Shown here: piece by piece, positions 88 through 53,709 of the stretch
Layout of the letters: each line of letters begins with the position of its first letter
Position numbering within the stretch: position 1 is the first letter of the stretch
From: Nitrospinales bacterium
GTDB taxonomy: Bacteria > Nitrospinota_A > UBA7883 > JACRGQ01
Direction of reading: 5' to 3'
Length of the DNA: 64,000 nucleotides
Assembly (NCBI GenBank): GCA_023248535.1
Contig: JAHFEJ010000002.1
Coordinates: 2,714 to 66,713, forward strand
Program-made: the position numbers and the translations under genes
The notes under the pieces: model-generated
Told to the model about the DNA's origin: nothing
What the model saw: only the letters and a program-made list of their open reading frames with translations
Databases searched by the model: none

Positions 88-510
88 TCAAATTGCCTGG
101 ATCTGGGGATCGGGGAAGGCCGCCCCCGCAGTTTTTTTGAGTCCCTCATCTATCCGGCTGCACAATTCCTCTTTATGGAACGGCTTCACCATGTAGCCCT
201 GTATTCCCAGCTTCATGCAATCGACGATGCTCTCCTTGTCCGAAAGCGCGGTGAGCATGATGACCACCGTTTTCTTGGGTTTTTTTTCGTTTTTTTCATG
301 CAGGCGGATTTCCTTCAGGGCGGTATATCCCGATACGAGCGGCATCATGATATCCAGAAGGATAACGTCGGGCCCCCACTTGTAATAAAGGTCCAACGCC
401 TCCTGTCCGTTGACCGCCGGGCGTTTTGAGTAAAGCTCGCTGCTCAATGCCTCGTCGATCATGATCTGCGATACTTTGGAATCGTCCGCTATGAGCACTT
501 TTAATTTCAT
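88..510 (-). CDS. Single-domain CheY-like response regulator (REC domain only)
   Basis: 140 aa. Conserved DD...D...K receiver pattern (LIADDS, LLDIMMP, MVKPF). Immediately downstream of the hybrid HK and probably in the same operon. Confidence 0.85.
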   Translation of the reverse strand: MKLKVLIADDSKVSQIMIDEALSSELYSKRPAVNGQEALDLYYKWGPDVILLDIMMPLVSGYTALKEIRLHEKNEKKPKKTVVIMLTALSDKESIVDCMKLGIQGYMVKPFHKEELCSRIDEGLKKTAGAAFPDPQIQAI

Positions 511-2777
511 CAGCCATATCCGTTCAAATGGTCATTTTGCGTTGAAGTTTTGGGTAAGGTGAAGAAAAAGACGCTTCCCGAACCTACTTTGCTTTCCACC
601 CCTATTTCGCCGCCATGCGCATTGACGATTTTATGCGCGATGGCCAGGCCAAGGCCGGTGCTCTTTTCGTTCCCGGTCGGACGGACGGTTGTCCTGCTAA
701 ACGGCTTGAACAGCCGGGGTTGTTCCTCCGCGGGGATGCCGACCCCCTCGTCCCGTATGGAAACCTTTACAAAGGAGCCGGCGTTTTCAACGAGGACATG
801 GATATGTTTATTCGGCATGGTGAACTTGATGGCGTTACTGAGCAGGTTGTCTATAACCTGCTCCATTTTGTGTTTGTCCATATCGACAATCGTTCCGCGG
901 GAAAGCGAACAGGTGATCGCGATTTCTTTCTGTTTCGCGACAACATCGGCCAGATTCACCCGGTTTTGGACAACCGGCGCGAGGTCCAAAGGCCTCCGTT
1001 GCAGTAAAACGGCGCCGACCTCGATCTTGGAAATATCAAGCAGGTCTTCAAGAAGTTTCAACATCCCGTCGCTGGCATCGATGATGATCTCGAGGAATTT
1101 CTTTGCCGTTGCGGCATCATGGTCGCCTTCATGCAGGAGCCGCGCATATCCCTGTATGGAGGAAAGCGGGTTGCGCAGGTCATGCGCGGCGATGCTGAGA
1201 AATTTGTCCTTCTCCGCATTTACCGCCCTCAATCCCTCCTTCTCTTTCAGGAGTTCTTCATACAGTTCCTTGTTCCTCAGGTGGGTGCCGATCCTTGCCA
1301 GCAGTTCGGATTCGTCGAACGGTTTCACGATGTAATCGTTGGCCCCCGCGGCCAGGCCGTGGAGCACATCCGACTTGTTTGAAGACGCCGTCACCATAAT
1401 GATCGGCACATGACGGTACTCCTTCATCTCCCTGACCCGCGCCGTGAGCGCGAAGCCGTCCATCTTCGGCATGAAGCAGTCGGTGACGATGATGTCCGGC
1501 TTGAACCCCGGAAGGAGCTTAAGGGCCGCCTCGCCGTCCGGCGCCATTTCCACGTTATAGCCGTTTTTCTTGAAAAAATACCTCATGATGTGGCGGGTGA
1601 CGCCGCTGTCGTCCGCCACGAGGATTTTTTCCTTCTTGATGATCTTCCGCGCCTCAACGAGCATCCGGAGAAACCCGGTCAGGCGGCCCGGAGTGAACGG
1701 CTTGGTGAAATACTCCACCGCGCCCGCCTCGAATCCCTTTATCCTCAAAGTCGGCGTATCGCTTGCCGTGATGATCAGCACCGGGATGTTTTCGGTGACG
1801 GGGTCTTCCTTCAGCCGCTTGCACGCCTCAAGGCCGCCCATGACCGGCATCTCCACGTCCATGGTGATAATATCCGGCTTTATCAGCCTCGCTTTTTCCA
1901 CGGCATCAAGGCCGTTCTCCGCCTTGTAAATGTTGCTCCACGTCGACGAGAGTTCCATGTGAATGACCGCCCGCGCCCCGGCGCTGTCGTCCACTATCAG
2001 TATTTTTTCCGGCTTTTTTTCGGACTCCTCCCTTTCAAGCTGGAAAAGCACGTTTATCAATTCGCTTTCAATAACCGGCTTTTTGAGGAAGTGGTTGACG
2101 CCGGACTCGAAAGCATTTTCTATATTCTGCGGGGTTACGTCGCTTGAGATGATTATCGTGCGGACATTGGCCGTCAGGTGGTCGGTAAGGACGTTATGGC
2201 ACAACGTGTAACCGTCCATGTCGGCCAGCAGAACGCTCGTCATCAGAATGTCCGGCTTGGCGTTCCGCGCCGTTTCCAGCGCATCTTTTCCCATCGTGGC
2301 GTGTAAGACGGTATAGCCCCATTTGCCAAGCCACTTATCAAGTATCCGGGAGACCGTCGGCGACGGGTCGCAGATCAGTATCCTCTTGAGCTTGTGCCGT
2401 TTTTCGTTATAGCTCATGACCTCCTGGTGCAATATCCCTTCGGTTATGAACTTTTGCTGGACGAATATGTCGCCGATGCGGACTTTCCGGCGCGTCCGTA
2501 TGTCGAGCAGGTATTTGAGCTGGCTTGAGGTCAGATAGCCGAGCGACACCGCCGCTTCGCCAAACATAACGTCGGGCTTGCCTTCTAGGTAATCGCTTAT
2601 CTCGTTCACTTTTTCCGGTGAGAGGTAATTCACTTCTACCGCGATCTCTCCCAGGAGCCGGTGCTTGTTCTGCACCCTTTGGGCGAACTCATGCTGTTCT
2701 TTGGTGATCAGCCCCTTGCTGACGAGATGTTCGCCGAATCCCACGTGGTTTCCCTTCCCGATAAAAGCCGCGATCAT
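510..2777 (-). CDS. Hybrid sensor histidine kinase: N-terminal tandem MshEN/T2SSE_N-like motifs, three REC domains, HisKA and HATPase_c
   Basis: 755 aa. Four copies of a ~24-aa xGExxVxxGLITxxQ motif at the N-terminus. Three receiver modules (KRILICD.., KILIVDDS.., KILVADDS..). H-box AHDLRNPLSSIQGY and G-box GLGLAIAHKIV. Confidence 0.85.
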   Translation of the reverse strand: MIAAFIGKGNHVGFGEHLVSKGLITKEQHEFAQRVQNKHRLLGEIAVEVNYLSPEKVNEISDYLEGKPDVMFGEAAVSLGYLTSSQLKYLLDIRTRRKVRIGDIFVQQKFITEGILHQEVMSYNEKRHKLKRILICDPSPTVSRILDKWLGKWGYTVLHATMGKDALETARNAKPDILMTSVLLADMDGYTLCHNVLTDHLTANVRTIIISSDVTPQNIENAFESGVNHFLKKPVIESELINVLFQLEREESEKKPEKILIVDDSAGARAVIHMELSSTWSNIYKAENGLDAVEKARLIKPDIITMDVEMPVMGGLEACKRLKEDPVTENIPVLIITASDTPTLRIKGFEAGAVEYFTKPFTPGRLTGFLRMLVEARKIIKKEKILVADDSGVTRHIMRYFFKKNGYNVEMAPDGEAALKLLPGFKPDIIVTDCFMPKMDGFALTARVREMKEYRHVPIIMVTASSNKSDVLHGLAAGANDYIVKPFDESELLARIGTHLRNKELYEELLKEKEGLRAVNAEKDKFLSIAAHDLRNPLSSIQGYARLLHEGDHDAATAKKFLEIIIDASDGMLKLLEDLLDISKIEVGAVLLQRRPLDLAPVVQNRVNLADVVAKQKEIAITCSLSRGTIVDMDKHKMEQVIDNLLSNAIKFTMPNKHIHVLVENAGSFVKVSIRDEGVGIPAEEQPRLFKPFSRTTVRPTGNEKSTGLGLAIAHKIVNAHGGEIGVESKVGSGSVFFFTLPKTSTQNDHLNGYG

Positions 2778-3206: not shown

Positions 3207-5780
3207 TTATGCGCGGAATTTGATCTTTACGCGTTTTCTGGCAAGCAGGGCGGAGAGGATAAGCATTGCCATGATTCCCAATAAAACGCCAGGATATGCG
3301 GCGCAATAAACTATCGGGAGCAAAAGCGCCATGACCACATTTTTCGCCAATCCATTATTCCGGATTTTATCCGCAAGCGCCGGTGAATAGCGGTTATACA
3401 TTTCCACGAACATCCTTCCCGGCACGTTGGTAAGCAAATGATCGTCCCTGAACCGCTTCAGCACCGTTACATGCCAATCCATATTGTTTCCGTAGGCCGC
3501 TGTTGCTATAAAGCAGCCGGATTTGCCGCCTCCTCCAGCCGAGGCAGTAGTGACGGTAGTTGCCGGGGGGGACGCTGTTGCAGCCGCCGGCGTTCCGTAA
3601 CGAAAGAGTCCTTCCCCCTGGGTTGCCGCATAAAGCACCTTGCCGTCCGCGGATATCGCCATTGACTTAACGGCCCTCGTGGATAATCCGGTCATGGCGC
3701 TGTCCGGGAACGGAGCCCATGTTTCCCCGCCATCGGCCGACATATAAACGCCAGAGGTCCAATCGCCCGCATAAACCGCCGCCGAACCAGCGGGGGCCAC
3801 CACTATCCCCCGCACCTGCGGATTCGCGGAAGAAAACCCGGTGTTTTTCGGCCCCGCCCACGTCGCGCCGCCATCGGCACTTTTGAAAATCCCCACCTTC
3901 TCGCTCGCGGCGAACAGGATCAACGGGTTGGATGGGTCGATGGCGACCGCGCGGATATCCGCGTTACCCAGGCCGTTGAGTTGCGACCAGCTGGAGGCTC
4001 CGTCCGAGGTTGAAAACATGCCGCCGGTGGTGGCCGCGAAGGCTTTTTTGGGATCGGCCGCGCCCACAACGATCATGTTTATATTTTTACCGTCGAGGAC
4101 GGAAGGCTTTGCGGCCCAAGTGGCACCCGCATCGGAGGAAACATAAGTAACGGTTCCCACCGGGACGGTGGTATCGACCGTATTCCGGTCTTTTGCCAGC
4201 CCGGCGTACACGATTCTTGTGTCGGAAGGGGCAAAGGCAAGCGCCTTGAAACCCTGCCGCGTGAGCGAACTGCCGGCGTTCGCGGATGGATGCCTCAGCA
4301 CCTCCGTGAATGTTGCGCCGCTATCAATACTCCTGAAGATCACGCCTTGATGTTCATCGGTAACGATAATGATCGCGGTGTCATCCGGTTTTTGCCGTAT
4401 GGAATACCATTCAGGAATCCCGGATGCGCCGCCCGTTGCAATTCCGGTCCAATCATCCCCGCCGTTTGCGCTTTTGAATGGGCCGCTCCTCCCGATTACA
4501 TAAACAAGGCCGCTGGTTGTCGGATCGACATCCACGCCGTGCAAATCCGCGCCGGTATATCCCTTGCTCCACGCCACCCATGTATTCGCTCCATCGGTGG
4601 ACTTAAAAAGGCCGCCGCCGTAAGCGTTGGCGTACAGGGTATTGGCATCGTCATAGGAGACGGTTACGTCTATCGGCACTCCGGCCCGTATCCCGGCCGG
4701 ACCCCAAATCCCCCCCGAATTCCGGAGGGTGCTCCATGTTGTTCCCCCATCCTGGCTGCGATAGAAAGCGACCGAGCTTCCGGCGTAAACGATCAACGGA
4801 TTGGACGTGCTGAAATTGACGGTGGTGAGAATATCGTTTGATACCACCTTTGTCCATGCACCGCCCCCGTTCGCCGTTTTGAACAGGCCGCTGATGAAAC
4901 CGCCGCCGGAATCCGCGGAACAGGCGTTGTTACCGGTGGCCGCAAAAAGAATGTCGGGGTTCGACGGGTGCATCCGGAGGCTGCCCACGTAAAGATCGGC
5001 AAGGCCGGTGTTTACGGCATTCCACGTCGTTCCGCCGTCGGCGCTTTTTATCACGCCGACCCCGCCCCTGATGCCGTTGGTGCAATCCGAATTATTCGCT
5101 TCCCTGTCGAAAATACCCGTTGATGCATAAAGCATGTTCGGGTCGGCCGGATTGATAATCAGATAGCGGGCGAGGTTATCACCTTTCCATATTTTGACCC
5201 AATTGGCTCCTCCGTCCACGGTTTTGTAAATTCTTCCTTTCGTCCGGTTGAACTCTTTTCCGTTCACCGCCGTCGGCACTTCCGCCATTGCATATACCGT
5301 ATTGGAATTCCCGCTTTGTATGGTAAATCCCCTGAATACCAGCCCTATGTCGGTTTCCAGGCTGATACCGTTGACCATCAGGCTCCAGGTAACTCCCGCA
5401 TCGGCGGACTTATACACCCCAAAATCGGCCCCCTGCCCCTGTGTACCGGCCCAGACTATGTTGGGATCATTGGGATCTATTGTGAGGCTGAAAATAGGAA
5501 CGGAATTGCCGCTGGAACCGGATCGGATAAGAATGCCTGAATTGCTGCTGACCCATGTGGCCCCCGTATTGGAGCTTCTGTTGACGCCGCTCCAGTTGTC
5601 GGTAACCAACATGATGTTTTTTGTGGAAGGGTTGATCCGTATATCGTAACCAAGGCCGCCTATCGGCCCGCCCGTCTTTACCCAGGAACCGGCGTGGCTG
5701 GCGGCAGGGGCAAGGGATAAGGCGAAGAGGCACGACAGGGCCCCAATGCCGAAACCCCGCATCCTATTCACAAAGCGCAA
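3207..5780 (-). CDS. Secreted BNR/Asp-box repeat protein (sortilin/Ycf48-like beta-propeller) with a C-terminal CFIATAAYG motif, TM helix and basic tail
   Basis: 857 aa. Signal peptide. More than 12 S/T-x-D-G-G-x-T/A-W Asp-box repeats. C-terminus GCFIATAAYGN followed by a hydrophobic helix and RKRVKIKFRA. An alternative start at MRGFG (5762) would abut the upstream gene. Confidence 0.75.
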   Translation of the reverse strand: MRFVNRMRGFGIGALSCLFALSLAPAASHAGSWVKTGGPIGGLGYDIRINPSTKNIMLVTDNWSGVNRSSNTGATWVSSNSGILIRSGSSGNSVPIFSLTIDPNDPNIVWAGTQGQGADFGVYKSADAGVTWSLMVNGISLETDIGLVFRGFTIQSGNSNTVYAMAEVPTAVNGKEFNRTKGRIYKTVDGGANWVKIWKGDNLARYLIINPADPNMLYASTGIFDREANNSDCTNGIRGGVGVIKSADGGTTWNAVNTGLADLYVGSLRMHPSNPDILFAATGNNACSADSGGGFISGLFKTANGGGAWTKVVSNDILTTVNFSTSNPLIVYAGSSVAFYRSQDGGTTWSTLRNSGGIWGPAGIRAGVPIDVTVSYDDANTLYANAYGGGLFKSTDGANTWVAWSKGYTGADLHGVDVDPTTSGLVYVIGRSGPFKSANGGDDWTGIATGGASGIPEWYSIRQKPDDTAIIIVTDEHQGVIFRSIDSGATFTEVLRHPSANAGSSLTRQGFKALAFAPSDTRIVYAGLAKDRNTVDTTVPVGTVTYVSSDAGATWAAKPSVLDGKNINMIVVGAADPKKAFAATTGGMFSTSDGASSWSQLNGLGNADIRAVAIDPSNPLILFAASEKVGIFKSADGGATWAGPKNTGFSSANPQVRGIVVAPAGSAAVYAGDWTSGVYMSADGGETWAPFPDSAMTGLSTRAVKSMAISADGKVLYAATQGEGLFRYGTPAAATASPPATTVTTASAGGGGKSGCFIATAAYGNNMDWHVTVLKRFRDDHLLTNVPGRMFVEMYNRYSPALADKIRNNGLAKNVVMALLLPIVYCAAYPGVLLGIMAMLILSALLARKRVKIKFRA

Positions 5781-7413
5781 TTTCCTTACTCCAGAGTTCC
5801 AGGTCTGTTAAAGGCCACCCTTTGGAATCCATCCACTGTTTGAACGCCCTTCGGTAGATCAGCTTCACCTTTACTGTACTACAACCTGATTTTTTGGGCT
5901 TGAATAAATATCGGGAAGAATCGCTTCCGCCCGCCGGTATGCGGTTGTCCGAAACTATTCTGGTCTGCCTCCAGTGGGGGGCTGGCGACCGGTAATTCGG
6001 ATTGACCTTGCCCGGATATTCCGCTGCGGCATCCCCCAGTATTTTTGCAAACCCCTTTCCCGGCAACCCGGCATAATCGCCGTTTATCTCGGATCCGATG
6101 CCGCCCCAATCCGGCACCACCGGGCCTCCGGCAAATTCCAGTTTTTTTCCGCCGCCGTCGTTGGCCGCCACCAGCAATATCAGGTTGCGCATCGGCACCC
6201 CCGTCGGGAAGTGGTGCCCGGCTTTTTCATTCGTTATCGTCACGTCGACCGTCAGGCCGTTTTTATTTTTTTCAGCGGCGACGTTAATTTTCAAAGCGCT
6301 GGCAATAAAGCGGGCATCGCGCGAACCGGGCATGTTGTGGGTGGATATGGTTTTTGGATCCCTGCTTACGCCGCCTTTCCCTGGAGGAACGATAAAGACT
6401 GATTTCATGCCGGGCGCCATGTGGCAATCCTGGCACTCCGTTCCTCGGGCGGGATAGGGGCTTTTAAGCCATTCATCGTACTCGGAGTAAACAGGCGTTC
6501 CCCAGAAACTGGCGCTGTGGCACGGGGCGCAAAACCGGCTTTTCGTATAGAGGGAGGAGTAGGTATCAGGCCCCGCCGTCACGTCGTCAAGAGGCCCATA
6601 GAACAGTTGTTCGCCGGGGGGAGGACGATTAAAACGCATCGATAACACCCCCGGATACCCGCCGCCATGAATATCGGTCCCTTTGATCTTGTGGCAGAAA
6701 TCGCATGGTATCCCTTCTCGCGCGGCGCCTTTTATGTTGTTAAGATCCGTATTCCAGGGATCGGCCATCGCCGCAACGGGTGCATGGCAGGTGGCGCAAT
6801 TCCCCGCCGAGCCGGGAAAATCGAGCCGGTATCCGGGATATATTCCATTATTGCCTTTGGCATCAGTCCCGTTGTACATATCCAGCAACAGCGGGTTTCG
6901 CGCGGACATGGAATGGGCGCTTGCCCGCCACTCTGGCACAGTTGTGTTTTCGTGGCAGTTTGAGCAGTTATTTTCAAACCTGCTTCTCTGTTTTTTGTTG
7001 CCGGTCATAAAGGAGAAGGCCCGGCCTATCCCGATGGAGATTTTTTCCATGAGGGTTGGCGGTTCGGGTGAAACCCACTGGTAATCCTTTGTATCGGCAA
7101 ACGGAATGGGGTGCAGATGGATCACCGCATTCCCGGAATTTTCGGCAGTTTCGGTTCCGGCAATGAGATACCCCTCTTTCCATGCGCTAACCGTTATGTT
7201 GCCGGCGGGCGTATTTTCCAGCGTAAACATACCTTTGGCATCGGTCACTGTTTGTATTCGAGCGGCCCGCATGCGAACTGCGGCACGCGGGGCCGGCACA
7301 CCGCCCTCGGTAAGAACGATCCCCGTTACCTGCCGCGCCAACGCAAAATCACCGGGGAAGCAAATAAAGGCAAACGAAAAAATAACAAGGCATTTCATGG
7401 CGGCGTTGATCAT
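5764..7413 (-). CDS. Pentaheme c-type cytochrome with an N-terminal carboxypeptidase-regulatory-like domain
   Basis: 549 aa. Signal peptide. Five CxxCH motifs (CSNCH, CATCH, CDFCH, CAPCH, CQDCH). Its stop overlaps the start of the BNR protein. Confidence 0.8.
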   Translation of the reverse strand: MINAAMKCLVIFSFAFICFPGDFALARQVTGIVLTEGGVPAPRAAVRMRAARIQTVTDAKGMFTLENTPAGNITVSAWKEGYLIAGTETAENSGNAVIHLHPIPFADTKDYQWVSPEPPTLMEKISIGIGRAFSFMTGNKKQRSRFENNCSNCHENTTVPEWRASAHSMSARNPLLLDMYNGTDAKGNNGIYPGYRLDFPGSAGNCATCHAPVAAMADPWNTDLNNIKGAAREGIPCDFCHKIKGTDIHGGGYPGVLSMRFNRPPPGEQLFYGPLDDVTAGPDTYSSLYTKSRFCAPCHSASFWGTPVYSEYDEWLKSPYPARGTECQDCHMAPGMKSVFIVPPGKGGVSRDPKTISTHNMPGSRDARFIASALKINVAAEKNKNGLTVDVTITNEKAGHHFPTGVPMRNLILLVAANDGGGKKLEFAGGPVVPDWGGIGSEINGDYAGLPGKGFAKILGDAAAEYPGKVNPNYRSPAPHWRQTRIVSDNRIPAGGSDSSRYLFKPKKSGCSTVKVKLIYRRAFKQWMDSKGWPLTDLELWSKEIALCE

Positions 7414-10925: not shown

Positions 10926-11333
10926 TTACTTCACGCCTTTGGCGATCAAATGCTCCACATAAAGCAGGTCCGTCTTGAGAATGTGTTTGTACAGCCAGTC
11001 TTTCAGGAAATCCATGACCGCCATTGACAAAACGGTTTTGCCGCTGGTGAAATTGTTCAGCACGTCGGTGGCCTGTTTCGCCAGATCGTCGTGTTCCTTC
11101 TTGTGCGCGTCGTAACCGGAAAAGGCGTACTTTTTCATGTAGTCCTCTTCAATGGCGAAATGCGAGGCGGTGTAATTCACCAGTTCGGCAAGCACCTTCC
11201 CCATGACCTCTTTGCTTTTTCCGTGCAACATCGAGTCATGCAGTTCGTTAACCATCCCGAACAGCTTTTTGTGTTGATCGTCGATGCTTTTAATTTTGAC
11301 GCTGTACTTCTCGTCCCAAGGAATAAACGCCAT
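10926..11333 (-). CDS. Bacteriohemerythrin (hemerythrin HHE cation-binding domain)
   Basis: 135 aa. His/Asp/Glu ligand pattern (HF..E, H..EH, H..D) typical of hemerythrins. Confidence 0.75.
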   Translation of the reverse strand: MAFIPWDEKYSVKIKSIDDQHKKLFGMVNELHDSMLHGKSKEVMGKVLAELVNYTASHFAIEEDYMKKYAFSGYDAHKKEHDDLAKQATDVLNNFTSGKTVLSMAVMDFLKDWLYKHILKTDLLYVEHLIAKGVK

Positions 11334-12182: not shown

Positions 12183-12380
12183 TTGCAGTCTCTCCCAAGA
12201 TTCAGGTTTTCAGATTTGGAATTGTAGCTGATTTTCCGGTTAACCATGTCCTGTTTTTTGCCGCTGCAGGAAAGCCGAAGCTTAATACCCTGTCCTGAAT
12301 TAAAACAGCTGTCTCTGGCCTTATTGTAGACATTTCGTTGCGTGAGTATTTGAACATGTTGTATTGGCAGGCGTTATATG

Positions 12381-12398
12381 CTGGCATGAAGAATGCTT
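12381..12398 (+). promoter_or_regulatory. Candidate sigma-54 (-24/-12) promoter CTGGCATGAAGAATGCTT
   Basis: GG and GC dinucleotides at the canonical 12-nt spacing (TGGCAT-N5-ATGCT). About 65 nt upstream of the lipoprotein start. Confidence 0.25.
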
Positions 12399-12462
12399 TT
12401 ATAAGTGGTCAAGTATGGAAAATCACACGATCTTAACTATAACCTCTGAGAGAGAAAAGAAT

Positions 12463-13098
12463 ATGACGAAGAGTTTTTATCGCCGTGGCTCGCTGTTTTT
12501 TGCCGGATTAGCCATGATTTGGCTTTTCGCCGCGTGCGGCTCGGCGGCGACCAAGAATGGTGGGGAAAGCGGCGGCGGTGGAAACAATGAGGTTGAGGCG
12601 ACATCGAGCAATGAGACATCGCATGCCCAAACCAGTGGCACTGATACCACGGGTGAGCTGAATATTACAACCAGCACCAATACCAGCACGAATACCGCCA
12701 CCACCACAACCACCGCCACTTCCACCACCACCACAACTGCCGGCCAGACCGCGGTTTATACGGTGGCTTTTACCGTCAGCGCGGCGCCGGCCACCATCAC
12801 CTCCGCCACCACGCCGACCTTCACCTGGATCCCGGCTTCGCCCGCTTATAAGGTGTATGTGACATTGGCCGGTTCCACCACCATCAAGTGGGGCCTTAAG
12901 TGCGCCACCGGCACCAATTGCATCAACAGCCCGGTCAATCTGGGCGATCAATCCGTCACTGGCGCAACGGCTACGCCGGTTGGCGCCACACCGGCGGCCA
13001 CCACATTGGCGGCCGGCACCTATAACGTTGTTGTAGAAACCGCCAGCACCACCGGCACCATCTCGCAGGCCGGGTGGGTGGCGTTCACCGTTCAATAA
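12463..13098 (+). CDS. Thr/Ser-rich low-complexity lipoprotein
   Basis: Lipobox LFAAC. Poly-T/S linker (TTSTNTSTNTATTTTTATSTTTTT) followed by a beta-rich C-terminal domain. Good RBS (GAGAGAGAAAAG) before the ATG at 12463. Confidence 0.6.
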   Translation: MTKSFYRRGSLFFAGLAMIWLFAACGSAATKNGGESGGGGNNEVEATSSNETSHAQTSGTDTTGELNITTSTNTSTNTATTTTTATSTTTTTAGQTAVYTVAFTVSAAPATITSATTPTFTWIPASPAYKVYVTLAGSTTIKWGLKCATGTNCINSPVNLGDQSVTGATATPVGATPAATTLAAGTYNVVVETASTTGTISQAGWVAFTVQ

Positions 13099-15624: not shown

Positions 15625-15718
15625 AACCACAGAGGCCCAGAGGCACAGAGCCGCAAAAAAGATTTTTGATGTCATTCACCAACAAGCTGTTTCTCCGTGC
15701 CTCCGTGGCTCTGTGGTT
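15625..15718. repeat. Palindromic intergenic element copy C
   Basis: AACCACAGAGGCCCAGAGGCACAGAG...CTCCGTGCCTCCGTGGCTCTGTGGTT. Confidence 0.7.
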
Positions 15719-15780
15719 TTTTGTCTCTAAAAAGCGGGGATTCCTTGCAAGGTTGCGCCGCCGCGCTTACACTTGAGGCG

Positions 15781-17223
15781 ATGACGCAAAAAATACTTTT
15801 CGTCGCGCCGCCGACAAACGCCACGAAACAGCTTACGCCCGACCTCGGCATCGGCTTCCTGGCATCCGCCCTGCGCGATGCGGGGTTTTCGGTCGATTTC
15901 ATCGATGTGCGCCGCGACGGTTTCTCCCGCGCGGCATTTATCCAGCGGCTGCGGCGCGAGCCGTACCTCTTCGTGGGGGTGAAGGTTTTTTCCACTTCGC
16001 TGCCGGAAGCGAACGAAGTGCTGAACGCCGTGCGCGAGGCGTTGCCGCAAACGAAGATCGTCATCGGCGGCCCCCACCCCACCTACGCGCCGGTTGACGC
16101 GCTGAAAAGCTGCCCCGCCGCCGACGTTGGCATCATCGGCGAAGGGGATGTGGCGGTGGTTGCGCTGGCCAATGCCTTCGCACAGGGGAACAGCGTCGCC
16201 GACATCGAGGCCATCGCGTTCCGCGACGGCAGCACGATACGGGTGAATGGGCGAAAGTCGTTCCTCGATCTCGAACGGCTGCCGATCCCGGCGTGGGATC
16301 TCATCGATCCGCGCCGTTATGTGGGCCACGAAGACCTCTGGTTCTTCAGCAAGGGGAAAGTGACCGCGCCGATATCGGTCGGCCGCGGCTGCCCGTTCAA
16401 GTGCACCTTCTGTTCCGATTTCATCGTGGCGGGGCGCAACGTCCGCTACCGCCCCGTTGAAAAGGTGATGGACGAGATCGCGCTGCTGGTGAACGAATAC
16501 GGCGTCGACGAGATACACCTCACCGATTCCATTTTCACCATCAACAAAAAGTACGTCTACTCCTTCTGCGAGAACTTGCAAAAACGGAACCTGAAAATCC
16601 ACTGGGCCACCCCTTATGGCACGCGGCTGGATACGCTGGATGTGGAACTGCTGGGCGCGATGGAGCAGGCGGGCTGCTACGGCACCTCCGTCGGCATAGA
16701 GGCGGGCAGCGACCCGATGCTGGCCTTCATGAAAAAGGGGGTTACGGTGGCGCTGGTGGAGGAAAAAATCGCGCTCATCAAGACGAATACCAAGTGGCTG
16801 GTGCAGGGGTTCTTCATTTTAGGCTATCCCACTGAAACGCGCGAAACGATGCGCGCGACCATCGATCTGGCCTGCCGCCTGCCGCTCGATATGGCGGTCT
16901 TTGCGCCGTTCCGCGCCACGCCGGGAACGGAAGTGGCGGCCTACCTCGCCGCGAACGAGCCGGAGTTCACCCCCAAATGGGGAAACCAAACCGTTGAGCA
17001 ACTTGTTTACCACCCGCGCGGCATCGGCGTGGAAGAGCTGGAGCAGTGGCATCGCCGCGCGTACCGCGCGTTCTACTTCCGCCCGCGGGTGGCGTGGCGC
17101 TATCTGATGATGATACGCGGTAAGAAGGAGCTGCGGCTCCTCGCCACCAAATTCAAGAACCGCATCTTCCGCCGCGCATCAGTTGAGGCGGATTCCACCT
17201 CTCCTCCCGTCTGGGCCTCGTGA
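15781..17223 (+). CDS. B12-binding domain radical SAM protein (class B)
   Basis: N-terminal cobalamin-binding-like domain. CPFKCTFC (CxxxCxxC) radical SAM motif. Confidence 0.8.
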   Translation: MTQKILFVAPPTNATKQLTPDLGIGFLASALRDAGFSVDFIDVRRDGFSRAAFIQRLRREPYLFVGVKVFSTSLPEANEVLNAVREALPQTKIVIGGPHPTYAPVDALKSCPAADVGIIGEGDVAVVALANAFAQGNSVADIEAIAFRDGSTIRVNGRKSFLDLERLPIPAWDLIDPRRYVGHEDLWFFSKGKVTAPISVGRGCPFKCTFCSDFIVAGRNVRYRPVEKVMDEIALLVNEYGVDEIHLTDSIFTINKKYVYSFCENLQKRNLKIHWATPYGTRLDTLDVELLGAMEQAGCYGTSVGIEAGSDPMLAFMKKGVTVALVEEKIALIKTNTKWLVQGFFILGYPTETRETMRATIDLACRLPLDMAVFAPFRATPGTEVAAYLAANEPEFTPKWGNQTVEQLVYHPRGIGVEELEQWHRRAYRAFYFRPRVAWRYLMMIRGKKELRLLATKFKNRIFRRASVEADSTSPPVWAS

Positions 17224-29447: not shown

Positions 29448-30239
29448 CTAGAACGACGCGCCGATGGCCGCGTACGGGCCGCTGAAACTGATGCTGGTCT
29501 TGAGGTTGTCGGTATCCAGCGTGATCTTCTGCGAGCTGTAGCCAAGCGCCAGATAGAGCACCGGTACCGGATGAATCCCCACTTCCACGCCCCAGTCGGT
29601 GATGCTGTTGCTCCCGGCGCTCAGGGTTTTATATTGCGCGTTGAAGGAAAGGAAATGGATGGGATAGACGCCGAGGCCGACATAGAGCATGGGAACCGGG
29701 ATCGAGGCGGTTTTTTCCTCCGTCTTGTTCGCCACGCCCGCCACGGTGCCGGTCAGCTTGCCGCTGAACGACAGCGAGCGGATGTTGATGCCGATCTCCG
29801 GATCGATAATGCCGGCGGTGGCCGTTTTGATTAACGGTATGTCGTAGAAAAGGCCGAAATCGACCGCGTTCAACGTCAGCTCCGTGTGGATGAGCGTGTT
29901 GGCCTGGAAGGTTTGGCCGCCGTACGTGAGCGCCGCCGTGCCGGTCTTGTCCCCCGAAAAACTCATCGGCAGGTAGCTGATGTAGAAATTGGGGATGATC
30001 GGGATGGCGTGCTTGATCTTAAGCTGCCCCGTGATGTCGCCGTGATCGCCCAGATTCAGGGTGTCTTTAAGGTTCGCGGAAGTCGCCGCCGACGATCCGC
30101 CGCCAACCTCCACCGTGCCGGACGGGGAGCGGGTGGTGGAACCCACGCTGAGGCTGACGTCCAGTCCCGGCAGCGCGTACGCGCGCGGAACGGCGGTCAG
30201 CGTCAAAATGCAAAATGCAAAAAATACTTTTTTAAACAC
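29448..30239 (-). CDS. Outer-membrane beta-barrel protein (OmpW/OmpA-like, 8-10 strands)
   Basis: Signal peptide. Alternating amphipathic strands. C-terminal aromatic residue (…AIGASF). Confidence 0.65.
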   Translation of the reverse strand: MFKKVFFAFCILTLTAVPRAYALPGLDVSLSVGSTTRSPSGTVEVGGGSSAATSANLKDTLNLGDHGDITGQLKIKHAIPIIPNFYISYLPMSFSGDKTGTAALTYGGQTFQANTLIHTELTLNAVDFGLFYDIPLIKTATAGIIDPEIGINIRSLSFSGKLTGTVAGVANKTEEKTASIPVPMLYVGLGVYPIHFLSFNAQYKTLSAGSNSITDWGVEVGIHPVPVLYLALGYSSQKITLDTDNLKTSISFSGPYAAIGASF

Positions 30240-35590: not shown

Positions 35591-36139
35591 ATGACAGATA
35601 AACTCATCACGCGCTATCTGGACGAGCTTTACCGCTGGAATGAAAAGGTGAACCTCACCTCTGTCGCGCGGGAAAAGGCCCACGCGGTGCTCATCGAGCC
35701 GTCGTTCGCGATGGCGGAGTTCTTTCCGCCGGGGGATACGCTGGAGATTTTCGACATCGGCAGCGGCGGCGGACTTCCCGCCATCCCGCTCGCCGTGCGC
35801 CATCCGCGGCACCGTTTCACTCTGGTGGAATCGGACCGGAAGAAGGCGGTTTTTTTACAGCACGCCGCCGGTCTGCTGGGATTGAAAAACGTGCGGGTGC
35901 TGAACGAGCGGAGCGAAAAGGTTTCGCAAGACCCCGCTTGCCGCGGAACCGCCGATGTTGTAACCTCGCGCGCCGTGAAGAGGGAAGATGTTTTTGCCGC
36001 CGCCGACGGCCTGTTGAAACCATCGGGCCGCGTCATCATCCACCACACCCCCGACGCCCCGGAAGTGGCCTCCGGTTACCACCTTTACGGCAAAATCCCC
36101 TCCGCCGACTGCTTCACCCGCCATCTCACCGCCCCATAA
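35591..36139 (+). CDS. rsmG: 16S rRNA (guanine527-N7)-methyltransferase RsmG (GidB)
   Basis: 182 aa. SAM-binding DIGSGGGLP motif. Conserved mnmG-rsmG synteny. Confidence 0.88.
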   Translation: MTDKLITRYLDELYRWNEKVNLTSVAREKAHAVLIEPSFAMAEFFPPGDTLEIFDIGSGGGLPAIPLAVRHPRHRFTLVESDRKKAVFLQHAAGLLGLKNVRVLNERSEKVSQDPACRGTADVVTSRAVKREDVFAAADGLLKPSGRVIIHHTPDAPEVASGYHLYGKIPSADCFTRHLTAP

Positions 36140-36539
36140 ATGCCACTATCCGCTTTACCAATAACGGCGTTTTTTTAATCTGGCATTCCCAAATCACAAG
36201 CGTTTTCCAACCCTGTTTTTTCAGCGCTAGAAGGTTTTTTTGGTCACGTTCTTTGTTTCTTGATAACTTTGCCTTCCAATACTTGATATTCGATTTTGGC
36301 ATGTGTGCGATGCCACATTGATTACTTTCATGTGTGTGCCAAAAGCATCCATGGACGAAAATGGCTTTTTTTCCGCTTCTAAACACCAAGTCCGGCTTGC
36401 CGGGCAAATCGGAAGCATGAAGGCGGTAACGGTAACCAAGTTGATAAACGGTTTTTCTTACGGCGATTTCAGGCTTCATCCCCTTGCCCCGGATGCGCCG
36501 CATGTTCTCGCTTCGCGCGTCGGGGGTGAGCTTATCCAT
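36126..36539 (-). CDS. vsr: Very-short-patch repair endonuclease
   Basis: 137 aa. Vsr motifs (PDLVF, FVHGCFWH). 8-nt overlap with the HNH gene. Confidence 0.88.
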   Translation of the reverse strand: MDKLTPDARSENMRRIRGKGMKPEIAVRKTVYQLGYRYRLHASDLPGKPDLVFRSGKKAIFVHGCFWHTHESNQCGIAHMPKSNIKYWKAKLSRNKERDQKNLLALKKQGWKTLVIWECQIKKTPLLVKRIVAFMGR

Positions 36540-37125
36540 CCTTCAGTTGTTTTTTGGCATCCTTGGGAAACTTGCCGATAAGCCAATTCAATACTGAAAT
36601 CTGATCAGTGGCCGGTGCTCTGCGGATTTGCGCCAACAATTTGCTGGCCGAAGGACGCTCAAGCGTAATATTGGCCGCCCCTTCATTGCAGACGGAACAA
36701 ATGGCGCGCAGGTTGGATGGATCGTCATCGCCACCTAATGATTTATCTTTAACGTGGCCTATGTGCAACCGGGTCTTGCGGGTGGGGTCATAAGGATGGG
36801 GTTCTCCGGCTGCCGCCCCGCACATCTGGCAGGTATACCCGTTTCGATCCAGAACAAGGGCGCGGGTTTCTTTTGATATTTCGCGGGCAAAGGCGGGCAC
36901 CGGCTTGGGGTTCTCAAGCAGATAGTCCCCCGGTTTCAAATTGCTCCGGTCATTGTGGGTCAGTATTTGGTATCCCTCTTCCGTGCGCAGTTCCCGGACT
37001 CTCCTTGCCCACTCGCTGGTGTTGCCCGCGATTTTTCTTAATTCATCCGAAGACATGACTTTGCCTATATTTTTCAGAAAATGTGCCCGGAGTTTCGCCC
37101 TCGCGCCATTTGATTTCTTTTTCAT
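36532..37125 (-). CDS. HNH nuclease, putative restriction endonuclease of a Type II R-M system
   Basis: 197 aa. CxxC...HIGH...N...CxxC HNH core (CQMCG, HIGHVKDKS, CSVCN). Sandwiched between the m5C MTase and vsr. Confidence 0.65.
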   Translation of the reverse strand: MKKKSNGARAKLRAHFLKNIGKVMSSDELRKIAGNTSEWARRVRELRTEEGYQILTHNDRSNLKPGDYLLENPKPVPAFAREISKETRALVLDRNGYTCQMCGAAAGEPHPYDPTRKTRLHIGHVKDKSLGGDDDPSNLRAICSVCNEGAANITLERPSASKLLAQIRRAPATDQISVLNWLIGKFPKDAKKQLKDG

Positions 37126-37129
37126 AATC

Positions 37130-38083
37130 TTAGCTTGCCACCTGAACCAATTGCCGCCTGGTCAGGCACTTTACCAACTGTTGTGCAACTGCGTGAGCCA
37201 CCGGAGAGGGAAAAGCGTTTCCCACTTGACGGTAGGCGGGGGTTTTTTTTCCATGAAATTGCCAGTCATCCGGGAAACCTTGTATGCGTGCCACCATTCG
37301 CACCGTCAGCCGGGGCATGCCGATAAAATCCTTGGCCGGGGCTTCATCCACAATGCCCCGGCCATCGACCCCCAATGCGGCCCACGCTTTTCTTGCCCTT
37401 GTCGGCCCCAAATCCGGCCCGCCATGCTTAAGGGAACCGCCAACTATCGTTGGCGCGATCTCATTGGCTTGTTTGGCCCAGTTTTTTGCGCCCTTCCATC
37501 CATTGAAGGCCATAAGGTCATATAGCGTTTCGCCAACAGTGGGGGGATGGGCCGATAATCTGAAAGGCCACGAAAAATTTTCCCATAAGTCAGATTTAAG
37601 GGCCACAAAGATAACGCGGGGCCGCAACTGCGGCACCCCGAAATCACTGGCATTGAGCAAAGCCCAATCGGTTTTATAACCAAGTTTTTTTAGTTCTTTG
37701 GCGACGTACAGGCGGTAATCCTGAAAGACGGCGTCCAGTATTCCCCGGACATTTTCAATCATTACCGCGCGAGGCCTGATTTCATCAACCAGCCTGATGG
37801 CGGCTGGAAAAAGATTGCGTTCATCATCTTCGCCCAATTGCTTTCCCGCCTTTGAAAACGGAGGACAGGGCAACCCCCCGGCGAACAGATCAACCCCTTT
37901 GTACGGCTTGCCGTTAAACTCCTTGATATTTTCCTGCAAGACGTTCCACTGAGGGCGGTTAAGCGTTAGGGTGTTGCAAGCGTTTTTATCAAGTTCGACA
38001 AGAGCCTGATGATCGAAGCCGGCTTTTTCAAGCCCAATAGCTTGTCCCCCCGCCCCGGCGCATACCTCAACTGAAGTCAGCAT
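37130..38083 (-). CDS. DNA (cytosine-5)-methyltransferase
   Basis: 317 aa. Motif I (EVCAGAGG), motif IV (GLPCPPFS), motif VI (ENV) and motif X. Confidence 0.9.
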   Translation of the reverse strand: MLTSVEVCAGAGGQAIGLEKAGFDHQALVELDKNACNTLTLNRPQWNVLQENIKEFNGKPYKGVDLFAGGLPCPPFSKAGKQLGEDDERNLFPAAIRLVDEIRPRAVMIENVRGILDAVFQDYRLYVAKELKKLGYKTDWALLNASDFGVPQLRPRVIFVALKSDLWENFSWPFRLSAHPPTVGETLYDLMAFNGWKGAKNWAKQANEIAPTIVGGSLKHGGPDLGPTRARKAWAALGVDGRGIVDEAPAKDFIGMPRLTVRMVARIQGFPDDWQFHGKKTPAYRQVGNAFPSPVAHAVAQQLVKCLTRRQLVQVAS

Positions 38084-52165: not shown

Positions 52166-52203
52166 CGCCCCGGACCGGCCAACCGCCGCCGGGGCTTTTT
52201 TTT
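52166..52203 (+). terminator. Rho-independent terminator
   Basis: GCCCCGG...CCGGGGC stem followed by T9. Confidence 0.8.
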
Positions 52204-52327
52204 GATAGCGCTGTTTTCAACCGGTGGTTGTTACCACCGGAGACAGATTTTTTCGCCCATTCGTACAAAGTGCAAATATGTTTGGCGGGTGGCCGGACGG
52301 CGCGGTAGACTGCTCCCCATAAACCCG

Positions 52328-53299: not shown

Positions 53300-53362
53300 C
53301 CCCATCCGCCGCCGGGGCGGTTCCTGTGTTACAATCAGCAAAATTGCCATAAAAATGCAGTA

Positions 53363-53707: not shown

Positions 53708-53709
53708 CG

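What the first reader, a model, noticed from the sequence alone, without database searches (positions are those of the whole stretch)
3207..7413. Overlapping genes for a pentaheme cytochrome c and a large BNR-propeller surface protein with a CFIATAAYG C-terminal tail
The cytochrome has five CxxCH motifs and a carboxypeptidase-regulatory-like N-terminal domain. Its stop overlaps the start of an 857-aa Asp-box (BNR) beta-propeller protein. That protein ends with GCFIATAAYG, a single TM helix and a basic tail, a candidate C-terminal sorting or anchoring signal. Together they look like a cell-surface redox/binding module, possibly for an extracellular substrate or electron acceptor.
Basis: partly seen in the sequence, partly recalled or inferred. 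Interest (0 to 1): 0.5.

Follow-up and report, generated by a model that had tools for sequence, protein, structure and literature searches.

The report
Membrane-anchored propeller with pentaheme cytochrome partner
Two tightly coupled genes encode a secreted five-heme cytochrome and a large double-propeller protein with a known but uncharacterised C-terminal membrane anchor (CFI-box); the pair recurs, unstudied, in many bacterial phyla, so it is a real and widespread redox module of unknown substrate, not a one-off oddity.

Summary
On the minus strand, 5764-7413 encodes a 549-aa secreted protein with five CxxCH motifs and a CarboxypepD_reg domain. Next to it, 3207-5762 (or 5780) encodes an 851/857-aa BNR protein ending in GCFIATAAYG, a TM helix and a basic tail.

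The tail is not new. It matches NCBIfam NF041770 (CFI-box-CTERM) at 81 bits against a cutoff of 40. The family has about 14,000 clusters at 50% identity, on unrelated secreted passenger proteins. AlphaFold2 predicts a compact four-helix domain followed by a TM helix (pLDDT 92). It has no solved structural relative, and no gene recurs next to it in 80 loci.

The cytochrome belongs to the pentaheme 'PHC' family (T. tepidum c552, ExtKL/MccSep). It lacks MccSep's catalytic Cys and Sec. An invariant Tyr (120/120) sits where c552 has Cys.

The BNR protein is predicted as a GH74-like tandem seven-bladed propeller. Its catalytic Asp pair could not be confirmed.

The pair is strongly co-conserved: 50 of 64 informative genomes, and 4 of 4 in the reverse direction. 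It occurs in both gene orders, across many phyla, with coupled junctions. The propeller carries the lineage-specific anchor (CFI-box, T9SS, SLH and others).

Best reading: an extracytoplasmic, membrane-tethered redox module of unknown substrate. Moderately interesting; a new variant of known kinds.

The parts
5764..7413 (-). Gene for a secreted pentaheme c-type cytochrome (549 aa) of the PHC family, with an N-terminal CarboxypepD_reg domain
   Evidence: ORF. Five CxxCH. Pfam and NCBIfam hits. 540 or more homologues. The family profile matches PDB 5ZE8 at E = 2e-18 and MccSep 9WT8/9 at E = 5e-7.
7336..7413 (-). Signal peptide of the cytochrome (aa 1-26, MINAAMKCLVIFSFAFICFPGDFALA|RQ)
   Evidence: Read from the sequence. 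No predictor was run.
7156..7332 (-). CarboxypepD_reg Ig-like domain (aa 28-86)
   Evidence: PF13620, 33.9 bits against a cutoff of 32.3. The profile also hits SusC N-terminal domains in the PDB.
6409..6987 (-). Heme-binding cap holding the five CxxCH motifs (codons at 6952-6966, 6784-6798, 6691-6705, 6517-6531 and 6421-6435)
   Evidence: Aligned to the heme cap of c552 and MccSep.
6487..6489 (-). Codon for Tyr309. It is invariant in 120/120 homologues and sits where T. tepidum c552 has Cys (GVPLC against GVPIY). MccSep's heme-2 ligand Cys239 aligns one residue earlier, to Val308.
   Evidence: The role of Cys239 is taken from bioRxiv 10.1101/2025.11.18.688581.
6184..6219 (-). GHHFPTGVPMRN motif (aa 399-410) at the start of the C-terminal Ig-like stem. 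It aligns to the loop that carries Sec325 in MccSep; this protein has Val406 there.
5767..6321 (-). C-terminal domain of the cytochrome (aa ~365-549), inferred to be the Ig-like beta-sandwich stem. Invariant residues: N395, G399, H400, P403, R409, W481, D489, R491.
   Evidence: The fold is inferred from the MccSep description and was not modelled here.
5760..5766 (-). Stop/start junction TAG-G-ATG (alternative TTG start at 5780), giving translational coupling
   Evidence: The same tight junctions occur in homologous pairs.
3207..5762 (-). Gene for the BNR/Asp-box tandem-propeller protein with a CFI-box-CTERM anchor (851 aa from ATG, 857 aa from TTG at 5780)
5691..5762 (-). Signal peptide of the BNR protein (MRGFGIGALSCLFALSLAPAASHA|GS)
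   Evidence: Read from the sequence. Predicted as an N-terminal helix in the model.
3588..5684 (-). Tandem seven-bladed beta-propeller core (aa 27-725 of the 851-aa form), GH74-like fold
   Evidence: AF2 pLDDT is mostly above 90 across the core. Foldseek top hits are all GH74 enzymes, E down to 5e-30, TM 0.54-0.64. 48% mean column identity among homologues, with many invariant residues.
3516..3587 (-). Low-complexity Ala/Thr/Pro/Gly linker ending in GGGGKSG
   Evidence: Sequence. pLDDT below 50. Gly-rich linkers precede the motif family-wide, 46% Gly in the 10 residues upstream.
3309..3515 (-). CFI-box-CTERM domain (CFIATAAYG ... LLPIV), 69 aa
   Evidence: NF041770, 81.1 bits against a cutoff of 40. 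Family alignment A3. AF2 pLDDT 91.8, helices at tail residues 6-12, 18-31, 35-56 and 59-77.
3210..3308 (-). TM helix (about 3240-3296) and basic cytoplasmic tail RKRVKIKFRA (3210-3239)
   Evidence: Sequence. AF2 helix at tail residues 79-105. Family-wide there is an uncharacterised hydrophobic run of about 19 uncharged residues and about 4 K/R in the last 15 residues.

Best explanation
The two genes form a self-contained, translationally coupled cassette for an extracytoplasmic two-protein redox module.

Shown:
- Both proteins have N-terminal signal-peptide-like segments.
- The first is a five-heme c-type cytochrome of the PHC family (relatives: T. tepidum c552, ExtKL/MccSep), with an extra N-terminal Ig-like CarboxypepD_reg domain.
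- The second is predicted as two seven-bladed Asp-box propellers arranged as in GH74 enzymes.
- It ends in a flexible linker, a CFI-box-CTERM domain, a TM helix and a basic tail.
- The pair is co-conserved across many phyla, and the propeller is the partner that carries the lineage-specific anchor.

Inferred:
- The CFI-box is a permanent, folded membrane anchor. Its helical bundle would lie at the outer face of the cytoplasmic membrane, with the TM helix crossing and the basic tail inside. In this two-membrane organism the propeller would therefore be tethered in the periplasm.
- The cytochrome has no anchor of its own. It would dock on the propeller at 1:1 stoichiometry (from the coupled translation) and act as the redox-active subunit. 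It would move electrons between the periplasmic pool and a substrate or partner held by the propeller cleft.
- The catalytic Cys/Sec pair of MccSep is replaced by an invariant Tyr and a non-conserved residue. The chemistry is therefore not MccSep-type polysulfide reduction. Heme 2 is probably either Tyr-ligated or adjacent to Tyr, or a plain electron-transfer heme.

The substrate is not identified. My best guess is a polymeric or particulate redox substrate.
For: Domain identity.

PHC homology: the family profile matches 5ZE8 at E = 2e-18 and 9WT8/9WT9 at E = 5e-7, including the GHxxPTGxPxRN motif. The family is described in PMC11976967 and bioRxiv 10.1101/2025.11.18.688581.

Active-site difference: Y309 is invariant in 120/120, there is no Cys at 308-310, and position 406 is S/N/V/Q. 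Only four (near-)invariant non-motif His (H167, H359, H400, H401) serve five hemes.

Propeller fold: AF2 pLDDT 84.7 overall, with the core mostly above 90. GH74 enzymes are the top 25 Foldseek hits.

Co-conservation:
- At least 570 species genomes encode the cytochrome.
- The propeller lies within 1.5 kb in 44 of 64 informative loci and within 6 kb in 50 of 64. It occurs in both gene orders, on the same strand in 48 of 49 full-length cases.
- No third gene is conserved.
- In the reverse test, 4 of 4 propeller homologues have the cytochrome immediately upstream with junctions of -8 to +3 nt and unrelated flanks.

Anchor on the propeller: CFI-box here and in L002. T9SS, SLH, PKD and other domains occur elsewhere. 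In T9SS lineages the propeller has Por_Secre_tail in 4 of 4 pairs and the cytochrome in 1 of 4.

CFI-box as a folded anchor:
- pLDDT 91.8, five helices.
- 14,138 clusters match, and the motif Cys lies 80-130 aa from the C-terminus in 142 of 146.
- Passengers span 102 Pfam families in 78 proteins.
- No gene recurs in more than 2 of 80 neighbourhoods.

Two-membrane envelope: lpxA, lpxD, lpxI, lptE and an outer-membrane beta-barrel gene.
Against: - No physical interaction between the two proteins was tested; a multimer prediction was not possible.
- In 14 of 64 informative loci the cytochrome occurs without the propeller, next to other partners such as CCP/MauG di-heme proteins. The cytochrome can therefore work with other proteins and may be a generic electron shuttle.
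- In three of four T9SS lineages only the propeller has the export tag. There the two proteins might end up in different compartments.
- Both proteins have very many invariant polar residues. That would also fit a catalytic propeller.
- Whether the CFI-box is cleaved or its Cys modified is unknown. 3 of 39 family tails lack the TM helix, which does not fit a simple TM-anchor role.
- Signal peptides and topology were judged by eye, not with a predictor.
Confidence: 0.5

Rival explanations
1. The CFI-box is a true sorting signal. An unlinked sortase-like enzyme would recognise and cleave the CFIATAAYG region, or modify its Cys. The propeller, with the cytochrome riding along, would then be transferred to the outer membrane, cell wall or cell surface.
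For: - The layout resembles known C-terminal sorting signals: a Gly-rich linker, a near-invariant motif with an invariant Cys, a hydrophobic helix and a basic tail, at the extreme C-terminus of very diverse secreted proteins.
- NCBI named it '-CTERM'.
- In other lineages the homologous propeller carries genuine surface-sorting domains such as T9SS and SLH.
- Substrates of exosortase-type systems are usually scattered in the genome, so the lack of a neighbouring enzyme is weak evidence against.
Against: - About 55 conserved residues separate the motif from the TM helix. Together they are predicted, with high confidence, to form one compact helical domain, unlike the short linear LPXTG, PEP or GlyGly signals.
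- No candidate enzyme was found in 64 kb here or in 80 other loci.
- No literature exists on any processing.
Confidence: 0.2
2. The propeller is the catalytic subunit, a GH74-like glycan-cleaving or glycan-binding enzyme or another propeller enzyme. The cytochrome only supplies or removes electrons, or senses redox state.
For: - The top structural matches are all GH74 xyloglucanases.
- NCBIfam F510_1955 'glycosylhydrolase' just reaches its cutoff, 177.6 against 175.
- The core is unusually conserved, at 48% mean column identity with invariant D40, R42, D55, N56, R144, R199, D219, R263, D365 and a Cys pair.
- Some homologues add carbohydrate-type modules such as PF06439 and Laminin_G_3.
Against: - Identity to GH74 is only 15-17%.
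- The GH74 N-terminal catalytic Asp aligns to the invariant Asn56, not to an Asp; Asp55 is one residue off.
- The second catalytic Asp could not be located.
- The F510_1955 score is the sum of five repeat matches to a 246-aa model.
- Hydrolases need no electron carrier, yet the pairing with a pentaheme cytochrome is conserved across anaerobes and aerobes.
Confidence: 0.15
3. The cytochrome is an MccSep/ExtKL-type polysulfide reductase, and the module serves sulfur respiration.
For: The best NCBIfam hit is ExtKL. The profile matches the MccSep crystal-structure sequences. MccSep is a five-heme polysulfide reductase with the same cap and Ig-stem layout.
Against: - The score is 49.6 bits against a cutoff of 250.
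- Both defining catalytic residues are absent in all 120 homologues: Cys239 corresponds to Val308 or Tyr309, and Sec325 to Val406 or other residues.
- MccSep genes sit in porin-cytochrome clusters, not beside a BNR propeller.
Confidence: 0.04
4. The two genes are neighbours without a functional link.
For: 14 of 64 informative loci have the cytochrome without the propeller. BNR propellers are a very large family.
Against: Adjacency holds in 44 of 64 loci across more than 10 phyla, in both gene orders, almost always on the same strand. The reverse test gave 4 of 4 with coupled junctions and otherwise unrelated neighbourhoods.
Confidence: 0.04

Closest known systems
NCBIfam NF041770, CFI-box-CTERM domain
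   Same: The tail matches the full 69-position model at 81 bits against a cutoff of 40. It has the same motif, position and linker/TM/basic-tail layout as thousands of family members. Close homologues are already named 'CFI-box-CTERM domain-containing protein' by NCBI.
   Different: Nothing differs at the sequence level; it is a plain member. The family has no published function, structure or processing enzyme that I could find.
PHC pentaheme cytochromes: T. tepidum cytochrome c552 (PDB 5ZE8) and ExtKL/MccSep (PDB 9WT8/9WT9; NCBIfam NF040886)
   Same: Five CxxCH motifs in the same order. It is homologous over the heme cap and the start of the Ig-like stem, including the GHxxPTGxPxRN motif. It is exported.
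   Different: - It has an extra N-terminal CarboxypepD_reg domain.
- An invariant Tyr309 replaces the Cys of c552, and MccSep's Cys239 aligns to Val308.
- There is no Sec or Cys at the MccSep 325 position.
- It falls far below the ExtKL cutoff.
- Its conserved partner is a BNR propeller, not a porin or rhodanese cluster.
Glycoside hydrolase family 74 (xyloglucanases such as 2CN3, 1SQJ, 6P2N)
   Same: The predicted fold is a tandem of two seven-bladed Asp-box propellers. GH74 enzymes are the best structural matches (E about 1e-29, TM 0.54-0.64).
   Different: - Identity is 15-17%.
- The first catalytic Asp aligns to the invariant Asn56, and the second could not be placed.
- It is paired with a cytochrome and membrane-anchored, and no carbohydrate-binding module is present in this copy.
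NHL-repeat beta-propeller proteins in extracellular-electron-transfer cytochrome clusters (Geobacter, Desulfovibrio ferrophilus, Ca. Tenderia)
   Same: A secreted beta-propeller without cofactor motifs, encoded beside multiheme cytochromes. Such proteins have been proposed to stabilise or anchor outer cytochrome complexes.
   Different: The repeat family differs (Asp-box/BNR, 2 x 7 blades, against six- or seven-bladed NHL). This is a two-gene cassette and not a large cytochrome island, and the cytochrome family differs (PHC).
C-terminal sorting signals handled by sortase-like enzymes (LPXTG/sortase, PEP-CTERM/exosortase, GlyGly-CTERM/rhombosortase, PGF-CTERM/archaeosortase)
   Same: A signature motif, then a hydrophobic helix, then a basic cluster, at the extreme C-terminus of diverse secreted proteins.
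   Different: The motif lies about 55 residues from the TM helix and is part of a predicted folded helical domain. No partner enzyme is known or was found.

Membership tests
NCBIfam NF041770 CFI-box-CTERM | HMM score at or above the curated cutoff (40 bits) over the whole model | tested here: met
   81.1 bits in the full protein and 85.7 bits for the tail alone, model positions 1-69 of 69.
NCBIfam NF041770 CFI-box-CTERM | Located at the extreme C-terminus, with the CFIATAA[YF]G motif after a Gly-rich linker, followed by a hydrophobic helix and a basic tail | tested here: met
   The motif Cys is 102 residues from the C-terminus, equal to the family median of 102. The linker is GGGGKSG and the tail is RKRVKIKFRA.
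NCBIfam NF041770 CFI-box-CTERM | A cognate processing or sorting enzyme | tested here: inconclusive
   None is known to me. None was found in the window. No gene family recurs in more than 2 of 80 CFI-box neighbourhoods. A genome-wide phylogenetic profile was not possible.
MccSep / ExtKL (NF040886) | HMM score at or above the cutoff (250 bits) | tested here: not met
   49.6 bits, a partial match to model positions 173-335.
MccSep / ExtKL (NF040886) | Five CxxCH heme-binding motifs | tested here: met
   Conserved in 111 of 120 homologues.
MccSep / ExtKL (NF040886) | Conserved Cys (C239) as distal ligand of heme 2 | tested here: not met
   It aligns to Val308, next to Tyr309. There is no Cys at 308-310 in any of 120 homologues, and Tyr309 is invariant.
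MccSep / ExtKL (NF040886) | Sec or Cys at position 325 in the D-G-U-P loop of the Ig-like domain | tested here: not met
   It aligns to Val406. The family has S/N/V/Q there and never Cys, and there is no in-frame TGA because the ORF is continuous.
PHC pentaheme cytochrome superfamily (c552 of T. tepidum, 5ZE8) | Sequence homology across the heme cap and the Ig-like stem | tested here: met
   The profile matches 5ZE8 at E = 2e-18 in two stretches covering profile positions 134-241 and 280-417.
PHC pentaheme cytochrome superfamily (c552 of T. tepidum, 5ZE8) | Cap plus Ig-like stem three-dimensional fold with a Y-shaped heme arrangement | not tested
The fold is inferred from sequence homology only.
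Glycoside hydrolase family 74 | Tandem seven-bladed beta-propeller fold with an inter-domain cleft | tested here: met
   Foldseek gives GH74 structures at ranks 1-25, E 5e-30 to 5e-22, TM 0.54-0.64 for most of them, over about 800 columns. The model's core pLDDT is above 90.
Glycoside hydrolase family 74 | N-terminal catalytic Asp (D35 in OXG-RCBH, D70 in C. thermocellum Xgh74A, motif R-[TA]-D-I-G-G) | tested here: inconclusive
   In the in-register HMMER alignment the catalytic Asp falls on the invariant Asn56, with the invariant Asp55 one residue earlier. The position was identified from the 2CN3 (mutant, RAAIGG) against 2CN2 (RADIGG) sequences. At 15% identity a one-residue shift cannot be excluded.
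Glycoside hydrolase family 74 | C-terminal catalytic Asp (D465 in OXG-RCBH, D480 in Xgh74A) | not testable with these tools
   No alignment covering that region was obtained.
Sortilin / Vps10 ten-bladed propeller | Ten-bladed single-propeller fold | tested here: not met
   The Pfam PF15902 hits are repeat-level only. Structural TM to sortilin ectodomains is about 0.2.
Sortase-type C-terminal sorting signals (LPXTG, PEP-CTERM, GlyGly-CTERM, PGF-CTERM) | A short signature motif immediately before the TM helix, plus a dedicated transpeptidase or protease | tested here: not met
   No NCBIfam model for those signals matched. The motif is separated from the TM helix by a roughly 55-residue conserved helical region. 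No partner enzyme was found.

The most novel reading that the evidence does not exclude
The cassette encodes a so far unrecognised, phylogenetically widespread extracytoplasmic oxidoreductase. In it, a PHC-type pentaheme cytochrome has replaced the sulfur-chemistry Cys/Sec site with an invariant Tyr at heme 2 (His/Tyr ligation, or a Tyr-assisted open heme). It works together with a GH74-like double propeller, which binds a polymeric or particulate substrate such as a mineral oxide, sulfur or polysulfide, humic material or a glycan. Separately, the CFI-box may be a new kind of self-sufficient folded tail anchor whose invariant Cys is covalently modified.
Probability: 0.2. Interest if true: 0.75.

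Novelty: new variant of a known kind. Interest (0 to 1): 0.42.

Why it matters
The flagged C-terminal motif is already catalogued, so it is not a discovery in itself. However, nothing is published about what the CFI-box does, and it ends about 14,000 protein clusters.

The more useful result is the cassette. A PHC-type pentaheme cytochrome and a GH74-like double propeller travel together as a coupled two-gene unit. At least 570 species-level genomes encode a relative of the cytochrome. The phyla include Chloroflexota, Acidobacteriota, Bacteroidota, Ignavibacteriota, Desulfobacterota, Nitrospinota, Nitrospirota and Planctomycetota. I found no description of the pairing in the literature.

The only characterised relatives of the cytochrome are a polysulfide reductase and a sulfur-bacterium cytochrome of unknown role. 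This branch has swapped their reactive Cys for an invariant Tyr. If the module proves to be an enzyme or an electron conduit for an environmental substrate, it would add a common, overlooked element to models of microbial extracellular or periplasmic redox metabolism. It also gives a concrete, testable pair for biochemical work.

Tried and rejected
1. MccSep-type polysulfide reductase: rejected, because the catalytic Cys and Sec are absent in all 120 homologues.
2. Sortilin/Vps10 ten-bladed fold, suggested by the Pfam name: rejected by the structure comparison.
3. F510_1955 'glycosylhydrolase' equivalog: the score just reaches the cutoff, but only by summing five repeat matches to a 246-aa model. 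I do not accept it as membership.
4. Locating the second GH74 catalytic Asp by sequence search with the first blades of the second propeller: this gave no GH74 alignment in register.
5. Word-indexed homologue search with the tail alone: it found only 3 proteins and was uninformative. The exhaustive search was needed.
6. Literature searches for 'CFI-box', 'FIATAAYG', and BNR + multiheme + propeller: zero papers.
8. A linked sorting enzyme, sought by clustering the neighbours of 80 CFI-box genes: nothing recurs.
9. A third conserved gene in the cassette: none.
10. Promoter and terminator scans around the pair: not above the shuffled expectation.
11. Rfam: only one tRNA in the window, far from the pair.
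The taxon is therefore inferred only from the nearest homologues (Nitrospinae and Manganitrophaceae MAGs).
13. Look-ups meant to annotate the rest of the window returned only short contigs, or nothing at all.

Full report
**1. Observation**

ORF 5764-7413 encodes 549 aa. It has exactly five CxxCH motifs, at aa 150, 206, 237, 295 and 327. It has a Pfam CarboxypepD_reg domain at aa 28-86 and a signal-peptide-like N-terminus.

ORF 3207-5780 encodes 857 aa from a TTG start. It has 12 Asp-box-like motifs, BNR and Sortilin-Vps10 repeat hits, and the C-terminal sequence GCFIATAAYG followed further on by a hydrophobic helix and RKRVKIKFRA.

Two details need correcting:
- The 17-nt overlap depends on the TTG start. 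The public gene call for the identical contig (ENA ERZ27280116, 156,950 bp) starts at the ATG six codons later, giving 851 aa. The junction is then TAG-G-ATG.
- The TM helix does not follow the motif directly. About 55 conserved residues lie between them.

**2. The C-terminal tail**

The tail matches NCBIfam NF041770, 'CFI-box-CTERM domain-containing protein', over the full 69-position model. It scores 81 bits against a curated cutoff of 40. No Pfam model covers it. Close homologues of this protein are already named that way by NCBI.

An exhaustive phmmer search of 1.84 billion cluster representatives found 14,138 matches at E <= 1e-3 and 3,467 at E <= 1e-10. The host proteins range from 118 to 3,263 aa.

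Among the best 150 matches, 146 have the motif. In 142 of those, the motif Cys lies 80-130 residues from the C-terminus (median 102). The ten residues upstream are 46% Gly, and the last 15 residues hold about four Lys/Arg.

The few 'internal' copies look like fused gene calls.

The passengers are very diverse. Among 78 hosts there are 102 Pfam families, mostly Ig-like, DUF11, choice-of-anchor-D-type, fn3, propeller, beta-helix and peptidase modules typical of secreted or surface proteins.

With an alignment of 39 tails, AlphaFold2 predicts the 106-residue tail with pLDDT 91.8 and pTM 0.72. It forms helices at residues 6-12, 18-31, 35-56 and 59-77, then a long helix at 79-105 that contains the TM segment.

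I fetched 80 metagenomic loci encoding CFI-box tails (at least 575 exist) and clustered their neighbours. No gene family occurs in more than two loci.

The window holds only this one CFI-box. The genes I could annotate in it are housekeeping genes, with no sortase-like enzyme among them.

The library holds no paper mentioning the domain or the motif.

I conclude that the motif is a known, very common C-terminal module. Its predicted folded nature, together with the lack of a linked enzyme, favours a permanent anchor over a cleaved signal. This is not proven. The invariant single Cys and the three tails that lack a TM helix remain unexplained.

**3. The cytochrome**

It has at least 540 homologues. 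At least 570 species-level genomes encode a relative. They span Chloroflexota (many Anaerolineae), Acidobacteriota, KSB1, Bacteroidota, Ignavibacteriota, Desulfobacterota, Nitrospinota, Nitrospirota, Planctomycetota, Actinomycetota, Deinococcota and others. The nearest is a Nitrospinae MAG at 55% identity.

A profile of 28 members matches two sets of PDB sequences:
- the pentaheme cytochrome c552 of Thermochromatium tepidum (5ZE8, E = 2e-18);
- the 'multiheme cytochrome c selenoprotein' MccSep (9WT8/9WT9, E = 5e-7).

These belong to the pentaheme 'PHC' family, which includes ExtKL (PMC11976967).

MccSep is reported as a periplasmic polysulfide reductase. [quoted passage not shown] The other four hemes are bis-His (bioRxiv 10.1101/2025.11.18.688581).

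In the alignments, Sec325 corresponds to Val406 here. Cys239 corresponds to Val308, next to Tyr309. The c552 sequence has GVPLC where this family has GVPIY.

Across 120 homologues:
- Tyr309 is invariant.
- No Cys occurs at 308-310.
- Position 406 is S/N/V/Q.
- The only (near-)invariant His residues outside the heme motifs are H167, H359, H400 and H401. That is four distal ligands for five hemes, the same count as in MccSep.

This is therefore a distinct Tyr-type branch of the PHC family and not an MccSep-type enzyme. Its NCBIfam ExtKL score is 49.6 against a cutoff of 250.

**4. The propeller**

The family core is highly conserved, at 48% mean column identity, with many invariant polar residues and a Cys pair.

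AlphaFold2 gives pLDDT 84.7 overall. The core (27-725) is mostly above 90, and the linker and tail are low in this run.

The 25 best Foldseek hits in the PDB are all GH74 xyloglucanases, which have tandem seven-bladed propellers (E down to 5e-30, TM 0.54-0.64 for most, 15-17% identity). Sortilin scores TM of about 0.2.

In the only in-register sequence alignment, the first GH74 catalytic Asp falls on the invariant Asn56. I identified that Asp from the mutant and wild-type pair 2CN3/2CN2 and from D35 of OXG-RCBH. The invariant Asp55 lies one residue earlier. The second catalytic Asp could not be placed.

The fold is therefore GH74-like, but GH74 membership is unproven.

**5. Co-conservation**

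I analysed 80 genomic loci around cytochrome homologues:
- 43 have the propeller within 1.5 kb on the same strand: 17 downstream, as here, and 26 upstream.
- 1 has it within 1.5 kb on the opposite strand.
- 5 have it 1.5-5.8 kb upstream.
- 1 is cut at the contig edge.
- 14 lack it despite at least 3 kb of flank on both sides.
- 16 are too short to judge.

That makes 50 of 64 informative loci with the propeller. No other gene is broadly conserved.

Where the propeller is missing, the neighbours are CCP/MauG-type di-heme proteins, a YVTN-propeller-CCP fusion, or a roughly 1,370-aa secreted protein.

In the reverse direction, I looked up four propeller homologues on long contigs. All four have the CarboxypepD_reg cytochrome gene immediately upstream, with junctions of -8 to +3 nt and otherwise unrelated neighbourhoods.

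The C-terminal end of the propeller varies by lineage. It is a CFI-box here, in the Nitrospinae locus L002 and in a few close relatives. Elsewhere it is a T9SS sorting domain, SLH, PKD, DUF1080, choice-of-anchor D or another domain. In four T9SS-bearing lineages the propeller has the sorting domain in four of four pairs, and the cytochrome in one of four.

**6. Interpretation**

The pair is a self-contained, translationally coupled cassette for an extracytoplasmic redox module. The propeller is the anchored subunit, and the PHC cytochrome is the redox-active subunit.

This organism has an outer membrane: lpxA, lpxD, lpxI, lptE and an outer-membrane beta-barrel gene are present. An uncleaved CFI-box and TM anchor would therefore place the module on the periplasmic face of the inner membrane, not on the cell surface.

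The function and substrate are not established. The nearest functional analogies are:
- PHC cytochromes in sulfur and electron-transfer chemistry;
- cofactor-less NHL propellers that accompany extracellular multiheme cytochromes.

**7. Verdict**

The tail is already known as a curated domain. The cytochrome-propeller cassette is an undescribed but widespread variant of known kinds.

Noticed in passing
window 88-2777 (-), and L001 17618-21454 (just beyond the left edge of the window): Directly downstream of the pair lie a hybrid histidine kinase with several receiver domains and a single-domain response regulator. After them comes a 1,278-aa NHL-repeat protein. NHL propellers are recurrent partners of extracellular multiheme cytochromes.
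   Followed up: no
L004, L008, L010, L011, L017, L020 (CCP-like); L032, L039, L066, L073, L075, L076 (YVTN-CCP fusion); L019, L024, L032, L039, L041, L045, L047, L060, L064, L080 (~1,370-aa protein): Where the BNR propeller is absent, the same cytochrome family sits next to one of three partners: a CCP/MauG-type di-heme protein, a YVTN-propeller fused to a CCP-like di-heme domain, or a very large secreted protein. The cytochrome may therefore serve several alternative partners.
   Followed up: partly
cytochrome homologues P0001-P0120: Five of the 120 homologues have CxxCM in place of the first CxxCH. Four are about 950 aa long with 11 CxxCH motifs, which looks like a fusion with a further multiheme domain.
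   Followed up: no
alignment A3 (CFI-box tails): Three of the 39 CFI-box tails end right after the conserved helical domain, with no TM helix or basic tail. The family has a single invariant Cys, which cannot form a disulfide within the domain.
   Followed up: no
window 36126-38083 (-), inside the low-GC stretch at about 36-42 kb: A cluster of Vsr endonuclease, HNH nuclease and a cytosine DNA methylase sits where GC drops to 0.47-0.54, against about 0.6 elsewhere. It could be a small mobile restriction-modification or repair island.
   Followed up: no
window 12364-13098 (+): A 244-aa ORF with a lipoprotein-like N-terminus and a long Thr/Ala/Ser-rich low-complexity region. It has no Pfam hit on record (227-aa gene call in L001).
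   Followed up: no
L164 1285-9569, compared with window 10926-11333 and 15697-17223: A distant locus carrying the cassette (P0141) also has a B12-binding radical SAM gene and a hemerythrin gene beside it, as this window does within about 8 kb. This is either residual synteny or coincidence.
   Followed up: no
window ~52200-55200 (+) (= L083): A run of genes: a weak Cyt-b5-like protein with one CxxCH, a CMD-family protein, a radical SAM protein with DUF3641, and LptE.
   Followed up: no
window 29448-30239 (-): An outer-membrane beta-barrel protein of family TIGR04219 ('OMP_w_GlyGly'), at 132.5 bits against a cutoff of 105. It supports a two-membrane envelope.
   Followed up: partly
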